A stretch of 63,567 nucleotides of DNA, filler included, from Rhizaria sp. SCN 62-66 (Eukaryota), in assembly GCA_001724265.1 (NCBI GenBank). It is 3 parts of 3 records of this genome, joined end to end, with 100 filler letters (N's around TTAATTAATTAA, not from the genome) between each part and the next. Parts side by side here need not be neighbours in the genome. Positions count along the whole stretch, not along the records: positions 1 to 23,920 come from MEDY01000424.1; positions 24,021 to 47,698 come from MEDY01000425.1; 1 more part is not named here. One strand, written 5' to 3'. The translations under genes were made by a program, and so were the position numbers. The notes below the pieces were generated by a model. It did no database searches, had not been told where the DNA came from, and saw nothing but the letters and a program-made list of their open reading frames with translations. Positions 3 to 34,900 of the stretch are shown piece after piece (position 1 is the stretch's first letter; each line of letters opens with the position of its first letter).

Positions 3-1118
3 GCGGCCGCGGCAACCGCCGCCGCCGCCGCTGCGGCCGCCGCGCCGCCCGCCCGCCCCGCGCGGCCCGCGGCGCCAGTGCCGGCGTCTGTGTCCAAGGT
101 CGGGGCTGCGTACCTAAACGGCGCGAACAGCTGTGGCCGCCTGCCAGACGGATCGCTTTGGGTCTCAACTCCCTCTGCCACCAGAGCCAGTTCGAGCTCT
201 AGTTCTGGCTCTGGCCCTGGCTCGGATGTTGTGAGCGTGCATGCGGTTATCAACCGTGTTAGTGGCAGTGATGGCGTTGTGAACCTGAGTCACCCGCAAC
301 AGGGGTACTTAGAGCGGTCTAAGTACCCTGCCGCTGCTGCCGTGGAGGAGTCTAAGGGGCGCCAGGACGCACTCGTCGACATTGTTGTTGTTGCGCCACA
401 CACCGCTGCTGCCGCTGCAGCCCTGACTAGCAGCAACAACTCGGCCGCTGGGAATAGGAGCAGTTTCGCACCCGCTTTGATGGGCGTTGGCTTTGACCTG
501 TCTAGCTTGCCCGCTCCTGCTGCGCCCGCGGGCCCTTACCCGTTGCCCCTTACATTCCACGCCCATATCGATGATGTAAGTACCACTGCCTCGGACTCGA
601 GCAACAGCGGTACGAACAGCAGCAACGGTGCTGTGATGCTGGGCAGTGAGGGTGCTGGTGCTCTCATCCGGGCGCTTGCAGCTGACACGGAGGCAACTCG
701 TTTGCTCTCTATCCGCCTCAACTCTAACAACGGCAGCACTAATAGCTCTAGTGCAAGCGCGAGCGCGAGTGCGAGCGGGAGTTCGAATGAGGCGCTTGAG
801 GGCGCGACCGTCGCCGCTGTCGCCGCCGCAATCGCGCTCGTACTGCCCGCCTCCGCGGCTGCCGCGACCGCAGCAGCCTCCGGCGCCGCGCGCGCCAGTG
901 GCGGCGTGTCCGGCCGTGGTGGCAGCGGCGCGAACAGCGCGGGTGTGAGTCTGTCGCTGGCACAGTGGGAGCAAGTTGTCGTGGCGGCGGCTCTCAAGGG
1001 CACTCTGCCGCTCACGCTGAGCATCCATGACGGGCTCAGCGAGGATTATCACTATCCAGGCAACAGTGATTAGCACGGATACGATGAGACGGAGCAACAA
1101 CGGGAGCAGGCGCAGTGA
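3..1118 (+). CDS. 3' part of an uncharacterised Ala/Ser/Asn-rich protein (5'-truncated by window edge); contains an in-frame TAG at 1071-1073
   Basis: The frame is open from position 3. After the TAG, coding-like sequence continues for 14 codons (HGYDETEQQREQAQ) to TGA 1116-1118, followed by AT-rich 3' UTR-like sequence. Confidence 0.6.
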
Positions 1119-1388
1119 GGAGCTTGATTGCGAGAAATGAACGACTTTGAGCAATGGATGTGCTTGTTCGCAGCGCCATGTTGTATTGCTGAATAACTTG
1201 TGTGTTTTTGTTGTGTCAAACTGATTTGTGTGTTCGATTTTGGGCCGCTCATTGAATACATACTTTTTCCTCTTCTTTGGTCAGCTTAATGTACGTACGT
1301 CGTAGTTTAAAATAACACACACTACGACGTACATTTTTCGTGTTTTTTTTTTTCCTGTTTTTTTTTTCTTCTTTTTCTCACCTTCGAT

Positions 1389-31900: not shown

Positions 31901-34900
31901 ACGGCGACGGTGACCGCGACCGCGAGCAGGGGCGCCGTCGGTACGACAGCGCGTCGGGCAGCAGCGGCAGCAGCTATAGCGGCAGCGACAGCTACAGCCG
32001 CAGCGGCAGCGAGACCGAGAGCGAGGACGACGAGAGCGACTGGGCCGTGACGCGCCGTCTGCGCGGCAGCGAGATCGACCCGGCAAACCCCTACGCGCTG
32101 CCCTTCGCCATCCCCCGCGCGAGGTACGATCATAATTGGAACAAAAACTATTTAATATATGAACTTCTTGAGATTTAACGTGATTTGGACTGATATGCTT
32201 TATTTTTACGACAATTTTAATGAATTTACGACTAATGTGAGTTTAACTTTAACTGTGCTTTTTTTGCTCTTTCACCGCGATGCAGGGTGAGTGACCTGCG
32301 GCTGCCCACAAGGCGGTCGCACAAGGGGGCGCCGCCCCCGCTGCCCCCGAGCTCTCGCCTCTACCAGTCACAACACCAGGGCAGCGGCACCATCGCCGAG
32401 GGCGCCAACGAGGGCGAGATCGACGCAGACGGCAACGCGGCCGGTCTGGCCGGCGACTGGGCGCTCGCGCTGGGCGCTGGCGTGCCGGGCGTGCGCTTCA
32501 CGTCGCTCTTCGCCCCCATCAGCGCGGCCACGGCCGCCGCCAGAACCGCGCGCACCAAGGACGCGGCTGCTGCAGCCAGCGCTGACAACGCGGGCGACTT
32601 CGCCGACCCAGCCTCTGCGGCGGCGTCGCAGGCCGTGGCGGCCGGCGGCGCGGGCGGCGCGATGGACGCGCTGCGCTCGCTGGCAGCGGGCGAGGCCGAG
32701 AAGGTGGCCCGTCTGCGCGCGCTTGAGGCCCGCGTGCGGCAGCTTGAGGCGGCGGCGCGCGAGACAGACCGGCAGCGTGCGGCCTAGGCCGAGGCGCGCG
32801 CCGCGCTGGGCCGCTCGCTCGTCGAGTCGCAGCAGCGCGAGGCGAGTCTGCGCGCCGAGCTGCAGAGCAGCGAGGCCACGGGCACGATGGCGCGGCAGCG
32901 CGGCGAGGAGGCGTCGGCCGCGCTCATGCGCACCCGGGCCGAGCTGCTGCAGGCGCAGCAGGCGCGCGCGGAGGCCGAGGCGGCGCTCGCAAGGTACGCA
33001 TTTCTCGAAATCAGATCTGTCATCATCGTATATCACTGTTTTGTATTAATCCGAATTAAATTGTGTGTATTTATATCATACTCTATATTTTTAATGTGTA
33101 TTTCTAACATTCACGCATATGTTCACATCAATTCGCAGGAGGCTCGAGGAGGCACGCGCCCTGGCCGAGGCGTCCCAGCAGGCGCAGTGGCGTGTCGTGT
33201 ACGCCGCCACGCAGCAAGAGGCCGCCGCAGCCGCCTCCGCCGCAGCAGCGCAGTACGAGCGCGCCATCGCGTCGCTGCAGGAGCGCGCGCGCGCCCAGAG
33301 CGACGAGCTCGCCGGTCTGCGCCAGCAGCACACCGCGCTGCTCGAGGAGGTTTCCCGCCACGCGCAGCAGACGCAGCGGCTGCGGCAGCGCCTTGTGGCG
33401 TCGTCCTTCTCGCTGCGCGCGATCAAGGCGTACCGCCTGCTGCTGCGGCATCTCGTCGTGCGCGGGTTCGTGCGCGAGCAGGTCACGCTGCTGCGGCTTC
33501 GGCGCGTGGTGTCGGCTATCGGCGACGCGCTCGCGCTCGCGCTACCGCACCCGGCCGCGGCGACCGGCGGCGAGGAGGCCATGGCGCTGCTGAAGCCCGA
33601 CCAGCAGCGCGCGCTCGCCGAGATCCTCGGCCCCATCGTCCTCGCCTCGCCGCCGGCCGCGGCCACGCAGGCGCTGACGATTGCGCCACCCACCGTCCCC
33701 AAGAGCTCATACACGCCCTCTGGCCCTGGCGCTGGCGCGGTCACCGGCTCTGGCTCCGGCGCCGGCTTTGGCTCGGTGTACGTCGCAGCGTCCTCCCCGT
33801 CGTCGTCCTCAGCGGCGCCGCCGCTGGGCGGCTCCGGCCTCAACAGCGGCCTCAGCAACGGGACCGGGGTGGACACCTCACAGGTGCTAATCCGTGCCTT
33901 ACGCTTACTTGCGGCCACCGAGTCTGCCGCGGCCGCGACCGAGGCCGCAGCAGCCGTCGCCGCCGCCACCGCGTCGGCCAACGCCAAGCACCTCGGCAAG
34001 GCCGGCGACAAGCCCGGCCACGTCAGCAGTCCTGGGACACACGCCGCGGGCGCTGCGAACGCCCCCGCGAGCGCGGTCGGCGGCAACGGGTTCCTCGCGC
34101 GGCTCAACAGCCCCAGCCGACCCCCGCCCCCGGTCCCTGTCTCCGCGGCCGACTCGTCCCCCTCTGCGCACGGCCACTCGCACAGCCAGTCTGACCGGAG
34201 CCGGAGTCGGAGCAGAACGCCCGCGGCCCCGTCGCGCGCGCCGCCGCCGGTCCCGCTCCCGCCGCCGCACCACGGCGCCGGCGGCAGCAACAACCACGGC
34301 GGCCACAGCGCGAGCAACGGCTCCAGCGCCTCCGCTGCCGCGACCGCCGCCGCCGCTGCCGCTGCTGCGGCGACGGCCCCGGTGACCGTGGCCGCGGGCA
34401 TCGCCGCGGGCGCGTCGACGATGATGGTGCAGACCGAGCTCGGCACGTGGCTCCGTGCGCAGCGCACCTTCACGCGCGCCATTACGGCGTGGCAGCGCGC
34501 CGTGGTCGACCTGGAGCGCGAGGCTGCGCTCGCGGGCGGCGGTTCGCGCGCGCACTACGGCGGCGGTGGCGGCAAGTACCAGTATCGCAGCGCCAGCAGC
34601 CACGCGAGCTACGGCGGCCACGGCATCTCCGCCTCCCCCGGAGTGCCAGCCGCCTCGGGCACCAACAGCGCGATCCTCGCCGGCGGCAACAATGGCCGCG
34701 CGCTGAGCCCGCTCCGCGACGGCAACGCGAGCAGCACAGCTGACATCAGCTCGTCCGTCCCCGATGCAGCCACTGCGAACAGCAGCGCCGCTGCAGTCGC
34801 GCAGCGCGTCGCTCTCGTGCGCGCGTCCGCGACGCTGCTCGACTCGGCGGGCGACAACGCGCTGGTCAACGCCGCGCGCTCCGGCGCCGCCATCAGCGCG

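What the first reader, a model, noticed from the sequence alone, without database searches (positions are those of the whole stretch)
1071..32787. Non-standard nuclear genetic code: UAG read as an amino acid (probably Gln) while UAA/UGA stay stops
Seen: five in-frame TAGs lie in four otherwise intact genes on two contigs. They are at 1071-1073 (+), 3859-3861 and 4095-4097 (-, kinase), 26423-26425 (-, DGAT2, followed by 110 sense codons to TAA) and 32785-32787 (+, mid coiled-coil of the ~3370-aa SH3 gene, whose exons stay in frame on both sides). These genes have no frameshifts or internal TAA/TGA. All 18 gene ends I could model use TAA or TGA, including HSP90 MEEVD-TAA. Established: nuclear codes almost always give UAA and UAG the same meaning. 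Split codes are known from very few lineages, e.g. the fornicate Iotanema (UAG=Gln) and an uncultured rhizarian (UAG=Leu). Inference: Gln fits best (see the MLKL-like finding). TAG is rare and absent from HSP90 and RPL35A, which fits a low-abundance decoding tRNA or a recent reassignment.
Basis: partly seen in the sequence, partly recalled or inferred. Interest (0 to 1): 0.95.

Follow-up and report, generated by a model that had tools for sequence, protein, structure and literature searches.

The report
Stop codon UAG read as sense
An uncultured, GC-rich eukaryote from wastewater-type metagenomes appears to translate the stop codon UAG as an amino acid while keeping UAA and UGA as stops, a rare kind of genetic-code change seen in only a handful of lineages.

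Summary
Four sit inside coding sequence. Two are in the N-terminal helical domain of an intact kinase, where a 51%-identical homologue aligns without a gap across one of them. One is in the middle of a phase-consistent exon of a ~3,400-codon gene. One comes before a 110-codon DGAT2 tail that scores as coding and has no ATG. The fifth (1071) cannot be told from an ordinary terminator.

Contigs from two other studies carry the three TAGs of the laid stretch without any difference. A further contig with the same dispersed repeat adds a fifth gene, with two in-frame TAGs inside a tandem duplication whose other unit has AAG and CAG there.

None of 19 modelled gene ends uses TAG (14 TAA, 5 TGA). No TAA or TGA lies inside a sense exon.

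UAG as a sense codon is the best reading (about 0.8). The amino acid is open: three aligned positions give Ser, Lys and Gln. Gln is favoured mainly by precedent.

No tRNA gene, eRF1 or RNA contig across a TAG was available. The lineage is undetermined; its HSP90 is at most 71% identical to anything found. This is a new member of a known, rare kind.

The parts
3..1118 (+). 3' part of a gene with no Pfam match, open at the contig start. It ends at TGA 1116-1118 if TAG 1071 is read through.
   Evidence: ORF and translation. 100 codons upstream of the TAG score 37.7 bits; 0 of 1000 shuffles reach that.
1071..1073 (+). In-frame TAG, 14 sense codons before TGA. It is either a sense codon or an ordinary terminator.
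   Evidence: Sequence. The tail score is uninformative, but tail GC is 0.62 against 0.41 in the next 150 nt. X2 contig 946-2165 shows 0 other letters.
1389..4175 (-). Kinase gene. ATG 4175-4173, exon 1 4175-4058, intron 4057-3936 (GTACGT..CAG), exon 2 3935-3081, intron starting with GTACGT at 3080, last exon ending at TAA 1391-1389.
   Evidence: Sequence and frame arithmetic. Pfam Pkinase E 3e-19 and 4e-11; MLKL_N E 1.2e-5, which is below Pfam's cut-off.
4095..4097 (-). In-frame TAG, codon 27 of kinase exon 1 (..HKSNAD-TAG-IKSLQTDV..).
   Evidence: Flanks score 8.6 and 4.5 bits; 6 and 48 of 1000 shuffles reach these. Contigs of X2 and X4 cover it with 0 differences.
3859..3861 (-). In-frame TAG in kinase exon 2 (..LLAVL-TAG-DCSAYISK..).
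   Evidence: P0003 aligns without a gap across it: 28 of 62 identical over the N-terminal domain alone, E 1e-16, with Ser opposite the TAG. Contigs of X2 and X4 show 0 differences.
26090..28150 (-). DGAT2-like gene with two GTACG introns. It ends at TAA 26092-26090 if TAG 26425 is read through. The start is approximate.
   Evidence: Pfam DAGAT E 1.9e-10 and 3.9e-5. Sequence.
26423..26425 (-). In-frame TAG between the DGAT2 body and its acidic tail.
   Evidence: Present in JGI contig L001, which is 100% identical over 2836 nt.
26093..26422 (-). 110-codon acidic tail in the DGAT2 frame.
   Evidence: 79.4 bits (0.72 per codon); the other two frames score -60.8 and -105.8; 0 of 1000 shuffles reach it; 0 ATG codons. 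The next 150 nt score -14.2 with GC 0.42.
28792..39418 (+). Long low-complexity and coiled-coil gene ending in an SH3 domain. Exon up to 32123, intron 32124-32285, exon 32286-32993, intron 32994-33138, exon 33139-39418 (TAA). The start is approximate.
   Evidence: All three junctions keep phase 2, with GTACG..CAG introns. SH3_2 E 2.2e-4.
32785..32787 (+). In-frame TAG in the middle of the 708-nt exon (..RQRAA-TAG-AEARAAL..).
   Evidence: Upstream 166 codons score 59.7 bits. Downstream 68 codons score 16.2 bits with GC3 0.97; the other frames score -55.4 and -28.6. 0 of 1000 shuffles reach either score.
58226..58228 (+). HSP90 terminator TAA after MEEVD, given as an example of the TAA/TGA-only gene ends.

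Best explanation

Shown:
- UAG codons lie inside coding sequence that stays homologous, in phase and coding-like on both sides.
- They lie in 4 of the 18 genes I modelled in the window, and in a fifth gene on another contig.

Inferred from how such codes work elsewhere:
- A tRNA with anticodon CUA reads UAG, most likely derived from tRNA-Gln(CUG).
- A release factor eRF1 recognises UAG poorly.

UAG is a rare codon here, about 5 in about 14,700 sense codons. It is absent from the highly expressed HSP90 and RPL35A genes. That fits a low-abundance decoder or a young reassignment.

The amino acid is not settled. My odds are Gln about 0.5, Lys about 0.2, and the rest spread over Ser, Glu, Leu, Tyr and Trp.
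For: 1. Homology across a TAG. P0003 is 51% identical over 280 aligned positions. It aligns without a gap through kinase TAG 3861. The N-terminal domain alone gives 28 of 62 identical, E 1e-16.

2. Gene structure. Kinase exon 1 runs from the ATG through TAG 4097 to a GTACGT donor and joins exon 2 in frame. The exon holding TAG 32785 keeps phase with both neighbours.

3. Coding signal downstream of the TAGs. The DGAT2 tail scores 79.4 bits and has no ATG. SH3 exon 2 downstream of the TAG scores 16.2 bits with GC3 0.97. 0 of 1000 shuffles reach either score.

4. The TAGs are real. Contigs of runs X2 and X4, from two other studies, cover 1071, 3859 and 4095 with no other letters. JGI contig L001 carries the DGAT2 TAG.

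5. An independent gene. L002 shares the dispersed repeat and the GTACGT donor. It has ATG 909, exon 1 909-1311 and an intron running to 1502. Two in-frame TAGs sit in unit 2 of a 147-nt in-frame tandem duplication. Unit 1 has AAG and CAG at those positions.

6. Terminators. TAG ends 0 of 19 modelled genes (14 TAA, 5 TGA). If TAG ended a fifth of genes, P(0 of 18) would be 0.018.

7. Control. 0 of 40 listed TAA/TGA lie inside a sense exon, against 4 of 9 listed TAG.

8. The kinase keeps its catalytic motifs (VALK, HGDIKPQN, DFG), so it is not a decayed gene.
Against: - There is no direct evidence of translation. No RNA contig crosses any TAG, and no peptide data exist.
- No tRNA gene is in the window. 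No eRF1 was available.
- Gene models are manual and lack transcript support.
- The sample is small: 63.6 kb plus 1.8 kb.
- About 60% of random nonsense changes would give TAG here, so 7 of 7 TAG has P of about 0.03 on its own.
- Two of the five TAGs (1071, 26425) lie where an ordinary terminator could lie.
- All TAGs sit in fast-evolving helical or low-complexity regions. None sits at a deeply conserved position.
- The three aligned residues (Ser, Lys, Gln) do not agree.
- L002 is tied to this organism only by the repeat, the splice motif and the shared metagenome.
Confidence: 0.8

Rival explanations
1. UAG is still formally a terminator but is read through often by near-cognate tRNAs. This would be leaky or programmed readthrough in certain genes, with no dedicated CUA tRNA.
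For: TAG is very rare in frame, about 5 in about 14,700 codons. It is confined to non-essential-looking regions. Two TAGs (1071, 26425) sit near C-termini, where readthrough extensions are typical.
Against: TAG ends 0 of 19 modelled genes, which is not expected if it still worked as a stop. The base after the 7 TAGs is C, A, G, A, G, A, C, with no shared readthrough context. Three TAGs lie early or mid-gene, upstream of the kinase domain or of about 2,200 codons, where partial readthrough would waste most product.
Confidence: 0.08
2. The code is standard. The TAGs are nonsense mutations, giving pseudogenes or truncated alleles, plus two ordinary terminators (1071, 26425).
For: With this codon usage about 60% of nonsense changes give TAG. 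All TAGs lie in poorly conserved regions. Contigs collapse alleles, so a heterozygous state cannot be excluded.
Against: At least 2 of 18 window genes, and the L002 gene, would be broken. Yet they have no frameshift and no TAA or TGA. The kinase keeps its catalytic motifs. The 110-codon DGAT2 tail keeps a strong coding signal without any ATG. Contigs from two other studies show no other letter at the three TAGs of the laid stretch.
Confidence: 0.05
3. The TAGs are removed or changed at the RNA level, by U-to-C editing to CAG or by unusual short introns ending in TAG.
For: Every TAG ends in AG, and many real introns here end in TAG. One duplicated unit has CAG where the other has TAG. No RNA contig covered a TAG, so this is untested.
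Against: Alignments across three TAGs have no gap, so the codon position is occupied. Candidate GT..TAG spans read off the sequence are 9 to 40 nt, against 122 to 205 nt for the introns whose ends I fixed. Most would also break the frame. The flanks of TAG 32785 are GC-rich exon, unlike the AT-rich introns. That nuclear U-to-C editing of this kind is not an established mechanism is recalled, not looked up.
Confidence: 0.04
4. The TAGs are sequencing or assembly errors.
For: None was found.
Against: Identical letters occur in contigs of two other studies and in a JGI contig.
Confidence: 0.01

Closest known systems
Iotanema spirale nuclear code (UAG = Gln; UAA and UGA are stops). PMC5304391, abstract and passages read.
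   Same: Only UAG is a sense codon. UAA is the main terminator: 104 of 119 complete transcripts there, 14 of 19 gene ends here. UAG never terminates. UAG is a minor codon there too, about 8% of Gln codons.
   Different: Iotanema is an anaerobic fornicate known from a transcriptome. This organism is GC-rich, carries introns and comes from wastewater-type metagenomes. UAG is far rarer here, roughly 1% of Gln codons if it is Gln (my estimate). Gln is shown there from 204 UAG sites and is not shown here.
Rhizarian exLh (Sainouroidea; UAG = Leu). PMC5304391, passages read.
   Same: A UAG-only reassignment. UAG is scarce in highly expressed ribosomal protein genes. The host clade includes coprophilic and free-living forms.
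   Different: Leu fits the three aligned positions here (Ser, Lys, Gln) poorly. UAG is abundant in some gene classes there. No evidence places this organism in Rhizaria.
Other UAG-only codes named in the discussion of PMC11687900 (passages read): Scotinosphaera (Ser), phyllopharyngean ciliates (Leu, Gln), Protocruzia tuzeti (Gln), and the oligohymenophorean with UAA = Lys and UAG = Glu.
   Same: The meanings of UAG and UAA are uncoupled. Ser is the residue opposite one TAG here.
   Different: Those are ciliates or a green alga. This genome has multi-gene contigs, introns of roughly 120-205 nt with a GTACG donor and 58-75% GC, which do not recall ciliates (my own judgement).
UAR = Gln codes (Amoeboaphelidium, hexamitin diplomonads, oxymonads, ulvophytes, many ciliates). 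PMC5304391 and PMC11687900, passages read.
   Same: A stop codon is taken over as a sense codon, most often for Gln.
   Different: In those codes UAA is reassigned together with UAG. Here UAA is the commonest terminator and is never in frame.

Membership tests
Nuclear code with UAG as sense and UAA/UGA as stops | In-frame UAG inside coding sequence that is homologous or coding on both sides | tested here: met
   4 of 5 window TAGs, plus 2 in L002. TAG 1071 is undecidable.
Nuclear code with UAG as sense and UAA/UGA as stops | UAG not used as a terminator | tested here: met
   0 of 19 modelled gene ends (14 TAA, 5 TGA). The sample is small and the gene models are manual.
Nuclear code with UAG as sense and UAA/UGA as stops | UAA and UGA never in frame in sense exons | tested here: met
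   0 of 40 listed TAA/TGA lie in a sense exon (classified against my gene models).
Nuclear code with UAG as sense and UAA/UGA as stops | A cytosolic tRNA with anticodon CUA | not testable with these tools
   ARAGORN finds 0 tRNA genes in the window. No whole genome is held.
Nuclear code with UAG as sense and UAA/UGA as stops | eRF1 altered in its stop-codon recognition domain | not testable with these tools
   eRF1 is not in the window, and no further contigs of the organism could be fetched.
Nuclear code with UAG as sense and UAA/UGA as stops | UAG present in the mature mRNA, and peptides spanning it | not testable with these tools
   Only contigs were served and none from an RNA run crosses a TAG. 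No proteomic data.
UAG = Gln variant (Iotanema-type; NCBI table 15 reads TAG as Q) | Gln predominates at conserved positions aligned to UAG | tested here: inconclusive
   Three aligned positions give Ser, Lys and Gln. None is a deeply conserved site.
UAG = Leu variant (rhizarian exLh type) | Leu predominates at conserved positions aligned to UAG | tested here: inconclusive
   0 of 3 aligned positions is Leu. Three weakly conserved sites cannot exclude it.

The most novel reading that the evidence does not exclude
This is an early-stage capture of UAG in a eukaryotic lineage with no sequenced close relative. UAG has already vanished as a terminator but has re-entered only about 0.03% of codons, all in fast-evolving regions. 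It may stand for an amino acid not yet seen for a UAG-only nuclear code, such as Lys, which fits the duplicated unit in L002 as well as Gln does. That would give a natural snapshot of the step between loss of a stop codon and its spread as a sense codon.
Probability: 0.25. Interest if true: 0.85.

Novelty: new member of a known kind. Interest (0 to 1): 0.7.

Why it matters
Codes in which UAG and UAA differ in meaning are few. In the two papers I read they are one rhizarian, one fornicate, one green algal genus and some ciliates. They bear on how release factor eRF1 tells the two codons apart and on how a stop codon is captured.

A further, apparently independent case in a GC-rich, intron-bearing organism would add a data point outside the usual AT-rich ciliate setting. 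That organism recurs in wastewater and bioreactor metagenomes of several studies. Its very low UAG usage would make it useful for testing codon-capture against ambiguous-intermediate models.

There is also a practical consequence. Gene callers using the standard code will truncate or split roughly a fifth of this organism's genes. An example is P0002, the kinase called from an internal Met, which lacks the N-terminal domain.

Tried and rejected
- **Whole genome.** None is held for this window.
- **Earlier notes of this scan.** Nothing by place, words or sequence.
- **tRNA scan.** 0 genes in the window.
- **RNA evidence.** The four runs laid were all Logan contigs. The RNA-labelled ones covered parts of the kinase 3' exon and of other genes, but no TAG and no splice joint. 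Nothing can be said on transcripts, splicing or editing.
- **More DNA of the organism via its dispersed repeat.** There were 2 short JGI contigs, 0 in genome contigs and 0 in viral contigs.
- **Relatives of the kinase in GTDB genomes.** Of 134 tblastn-confirmed stretches the best 80 were kept as loci, 82 rows listed. All are bacterial-type kinases at 24-48% identity and none is a relative.
- **Longer annotated relatives of the kinase.** None at E <= 1e-8.
- **Exhaustive HMMER search with kinase exon 2.** 5980 hits at E <= 0.001. Among the 150 listed, only P0003 reaches the N-terminal domain, so only one residue could be read opposite TAG 3861.
- **PDB sequence search with the N-terminal domain.** One chance-level hit, E 1.4.
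- **Paralogues of the TAG neighbourhoods in the window.** None beyond low-complexity matches.
- **Lineage.**
  - HSP90 gives at most 71% identity, to unnamed metatranscriptome proteins. It gives 62-66% to plants and dinoflagellates and 51-59% to fish.
  - The best named hit carries the id MMETSP0206, listed as Euplotes focardii in PMC6859813. That is too weak to place the organism.
  - The Atlas and PDB searches gave no taxonomic signal.
  - A literature search on the GTACGT donor motif was uninformative.
- **First sliding-window codon test** (30 codons either side). It was too weak to separate sense TAGs from antisense shadow frames, so the segment-based test replaced it.
- **An apparent third in-frame TAG in L002** (after a hydrophobic stretch). 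It is intronic: GTACGT at 1312, with the acceptor AG at 1501-1502.
- **TAG 60768.** It looked in-frame but is an intron acceptor.
- **Literature.** Searches for this organism or for a wastewater eukaryote with a variant code found nothing. Supplementary tables of the cited papers were not seen.
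Full report
**What the window is.**
- It holds three contigs joined by N44-TTAATTAATTAA-N44 spacers, at 23921-24020 and 47699-47798.
- It is nuclear DNA of a eukaryote. Exons are GC-rich: GC3 is 0.60-0.89 in nine long ORFs. 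Introns and intergenic DNA are AT-rich.
- Introns almost always begin GTACG.
- No whole genome is held.
- The stretch 1000-4400 occurs in contigs of 16 listed runs from 11 studies. They are labelled bioreactor, wastewater, activated sludge, microbial fuel cell or sludge metagenome. Only four of the runs hold half or more of the sampled words.
- Pfam recognises a protein kinase with a weak MLKL_N match, a Dpy-30 motif protein, a DAG kinase, DGAT2, a DHHA2 protein, RRN3, a cyclophilin-like protein and an SH3 domain.
- HSP90 and RPL35A were read directly from the sequence.

**The observation.** All five TAGs are at the stated coordinates and in frame.

I scored every TAA/TGA-delimited frame with a codon log-odds model. 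The model was trained on nine long TAG-free ORFs: 10,356 codons, with CAG 234, CAA 62 and TAG 0.
- In segments of 40 bits or more, 9 TAGs lie inside the best-scoring part. Five are intron acceptors.
- The fifth reader TAG (4097) lies in the short kinase exon 1, a 20.9-bit segment.
- The mirror control, freeing TAA or TGA instead, lists 14 TAA and 26 TGA.
- Against my gene models, none of these 40 is inside a sense exon. They are gene ends, intron interiors, 5' boundaries or antisense shadow frames of GC-rich genes.
- The nearest thing to an exception is the RPL35A terminator (52092). Its downstream 51 codons score 18 bits but read as non-coding.

**Kinase (minus strand).**
- From ATG 4175-4173, exon 1 (118 nt) runs through TAG 4097-4095 (codon 27) to a GTACGT donor at 4057. 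The intron ends at CAG 3938-3936. Exon 2 continues in phase through TAG 3861-3859.
- A word-based search found P0003 (296 aa, from Logan and ENA assemblies). It is 51% identical over 280 aligned positions.
- The alignment runs without a gap across the second TAG: ALKALLAVL-x-DCSAYISK against ALEHLLEVL-S-DCQDYLTK.
- The N-terminal domain alone gives 28 of 62 identities, E 1e-16, no gaps.
- The TAG therefore occupies a residue position in a conserved domain.
- The kinase keeps VALK, HGDIKPQN and DFG.
- An exhaustive HMMER search found no other protein reaching the N-terminal domain among the 150 best listed.

**SH3 gene.**
- TAG 32785 lies in a 708-nt exon (32286-32993) between two AT-rich GTACG..CAG introns.
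- All three exons join in phase 2.
- Upstream of the TAG, 166 codons score 59.7 bits. Downstream, 68 codons score 16.2 bits with GC3 0.97, while the other frames score -55 and -29. 0 of 1000 shuffles reach either score.
- About 2,200 further codons and the SH3 domain follow.

**DGAT2.**
- The TAG lies 55 residues after the Pfam DAGAT match ends, so by position alone it could be a terminator.
- However, the next 110 codons score 79.4 bits (other frames -61 and -106; 0 of 1000 shuffles). They contain no ATG and end at TAA exactly where GC falls to 0.42.
- The tail is therefore coding and can only be reached through the TAG.

**TAG 1071.** It is followed by 14 sense codons and then TGA. The score is uninformative. 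I count it as undecided.

**Are the letters real?**
- Contigs of X2 (946-2165 and 3183-4385) and X4 (3476-4385) come from two studies other than the likely source. They show 0 other letters.
- No alternative letter is listed at any of the three sites in any of the four runs.
- JGI contig L001 is 100% identical to 25596-28431, including the DGAT2 TAG. It may come from a related sample, so it is not necessarily independent.
- No RNA contig crosses a TAG.

**A fifth gene.**
- A ~90-130-nt dispersed repeat occurs at 4356-4445, 4928-5017 and 25908-26028. I used it as a probe.
- It found L002 (1771 nt) in the same JGI metagenome as L001. Its copy is 88-91% identical to the window's copies.
- L002 holds a gene with ATG 909, exon 1 909-1311, and a GTACGT intron running through (CT)n(CA)n to the acceptor AG at 1501-1502. 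Exon 2 continues in phase.
- Exon 1 has two in-frame TAGs (1143, 1170) in the second unit of a 147-nt in-frame tandem duplication. The alignment's mean column identity is 89%.
- The first unit has AAG and CAG at those positions.

**Terminators.**
- In the window I modelled 18 gene ends.
- 13 use TAA: kinase, the RGG-tailed gene ending at 14800-14802, the gene ending at 15124, DAG kinase, the gene ending at 20840, DGAT2, SH3, the gene ending at 40194, RRN3, the small gene ending near 48572, RPL35A, HSP90, and the gene ending at 62091.
- 5 use TGA: gene 1, Dpy-30, DHHA2, cyclophilin-like, rhomboid-like.
- The partial gene upstream in L002 ends in TAA. That makes 0 of 19 with TAG.
- If TAG ended 20% of genes, P(0 of 18) would be 0.018.

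**How strong is this?**
- 'Only TAG' is weak taken alone. With this codon usage 60-62% of single-base nonsense changes give TAG, so 7 of 7 has P of about 0.03.
- The weight comes from the combination. Interrupted genes are dense: 4 of 18, or at least 2 of 18 on the most cautious count, plus L002.
- They have no frameshift and no TAA or TGA.
- Homology, phase and coding signal continue across the TAGs.
- Contigs from other studies carry the same letters at the sites I could lay, and TAG is absent as a terminator.
- I put UAG as a sense codon at about 0.8.

**Which amino acid?**
- Only three positions can be compared: Ser (P0003), Lys and Gln (L002 unit 1).
- Using rough conservation and exchange rates of my own, not a tool result, Gln and Lys come out about equal. 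Ser is several-fold lower and Leu far lower.
- CAG to TAG is a transition, which would be silent under Gln.
- Gln is also the commonest outcome in other lineages (PMC11687900, passages read).
- I therefore favour Gln at about 0.5, which is not established.

**Comparison with what is known.**
- UAG-only codes are described for the rhizarian exLh (Leu) and Iotanema (Gln) (PMC5304391, abstract and passages).
- The discussion of PMC11687900 also names Scotinosphaera (Ser), phyllopharyngean ciliates (Leu, Gln), Protocruzia (Gln), and a ciliate with UAA = Lys and UAG = Glu.
- Amoeboaphelidium reassigns both UAR codons, so it is a different case.
- In Iotanema UAG is about 8% of Gln codons and UAA is the main stop.
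- Here UAG would be about 1% of Gln codons, by my estimate.
- Full-text searches found no report of such a code in a wastewater eukaryote. Supplements were closed.

**Lineage.**
- It is undetermined.
- HSP90 is at most 71% identical to any long protein returned. The best hits are unnamed metatranscriptome sequences, and no NCBI-named ~700-aa HSP90 is among the 120 listed.
- This suggests a poorly sampled lineage but does not place it.

**Verdict.** The main interpretation is supported. The Gln assignment is open. This is a new member of a known, rare kind.

Noticed in passing
23921-24020 and 47699-47798: The window is three contigs joined by N44-TTAATTAATTAA-N44 spacers, that is, a concatenated bin. 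ORFs or repeats reported across these spacers are artefacts.
   Followed up: yes
4356-4445, 4928-5017, 25908-26028; L002 392-528: A dispersed ~90-130-nt intergenic repeat, 79-91% identical between copies, with two conserved cores. Summed contig depth over 4134-4427 is about five times that of its neighbours in two runs, so it is multi-copy and may be a MITE-like element.
   Followed up: partly
Whole window, e.g. 4057, 3080, 32124, 32994, 56146, 56890, 60595, 61122; L002 1312: The 5' splice site is almost always GTACG. One exception, GTTCGT near 50116, was seen. Introns are AT- or pyrimidine-rich within GC-rich exons, and several end in TAG.
   Followed up: partly
Gene ends, e.g. 14800, 15124, 20389, 39416, 40194, 52090, 58226, 62089: Terminators favour G as the next base: 8 of 13 TAA and 3 of 5 TGA. 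The in-frame TAGs show G in 2 of 7. TAA is the commonest stop despite the high GC.
   Followed up: partly
1389-4175 (-): A helical N-terminal domain with a weak MLKL_N match (E 1.2e-5, below Pfam's cut-off) is fused to a kinase that keeps its catalytic motifs, unlike the MLKL pseudokinase (comparison recalled). It is followed by a ~400-residue Pro-rich C-terminal region. Only a few relatives exist in the protein collections.
   Followed up: partly
55771-58228 (+): The cytosolic HSP90 (MEEVD end, several introns) is at most 71% identical to any long protein returned. That points to a lineage without a sequenced close relative.
   Followed up: partly
9657-14802 (+): A very long acidic, low-complexity protein whose last exon (14485-14802) is an RGG/RGGRGG repeat tail. 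The antisense frame there mimics a Thr/Ala-rich ORF ending in TAG, which is not a gene.
   Followed up: yes
47799-47890: Contig 3 begins with about 23 tandem TTCG units at its very end. Whether this is a chromosome-end repeat or a plain microsatellite is unknown.
   Followed up: no
L002 1312-1502: An intron made largely of (CT)n and (CA)n microsatellites. Read in frame, it mimics a transmembrane segment followed by TAG.
   Followed up: yes
49531-51673 (+): The two ORFs 49531-50166 and 50273-51673 are one gene joined by an intron (about 50116-50272). The product has a cyclophilin-like start and long poly-Ala and poly-Gln runs.
   Followed up: partly
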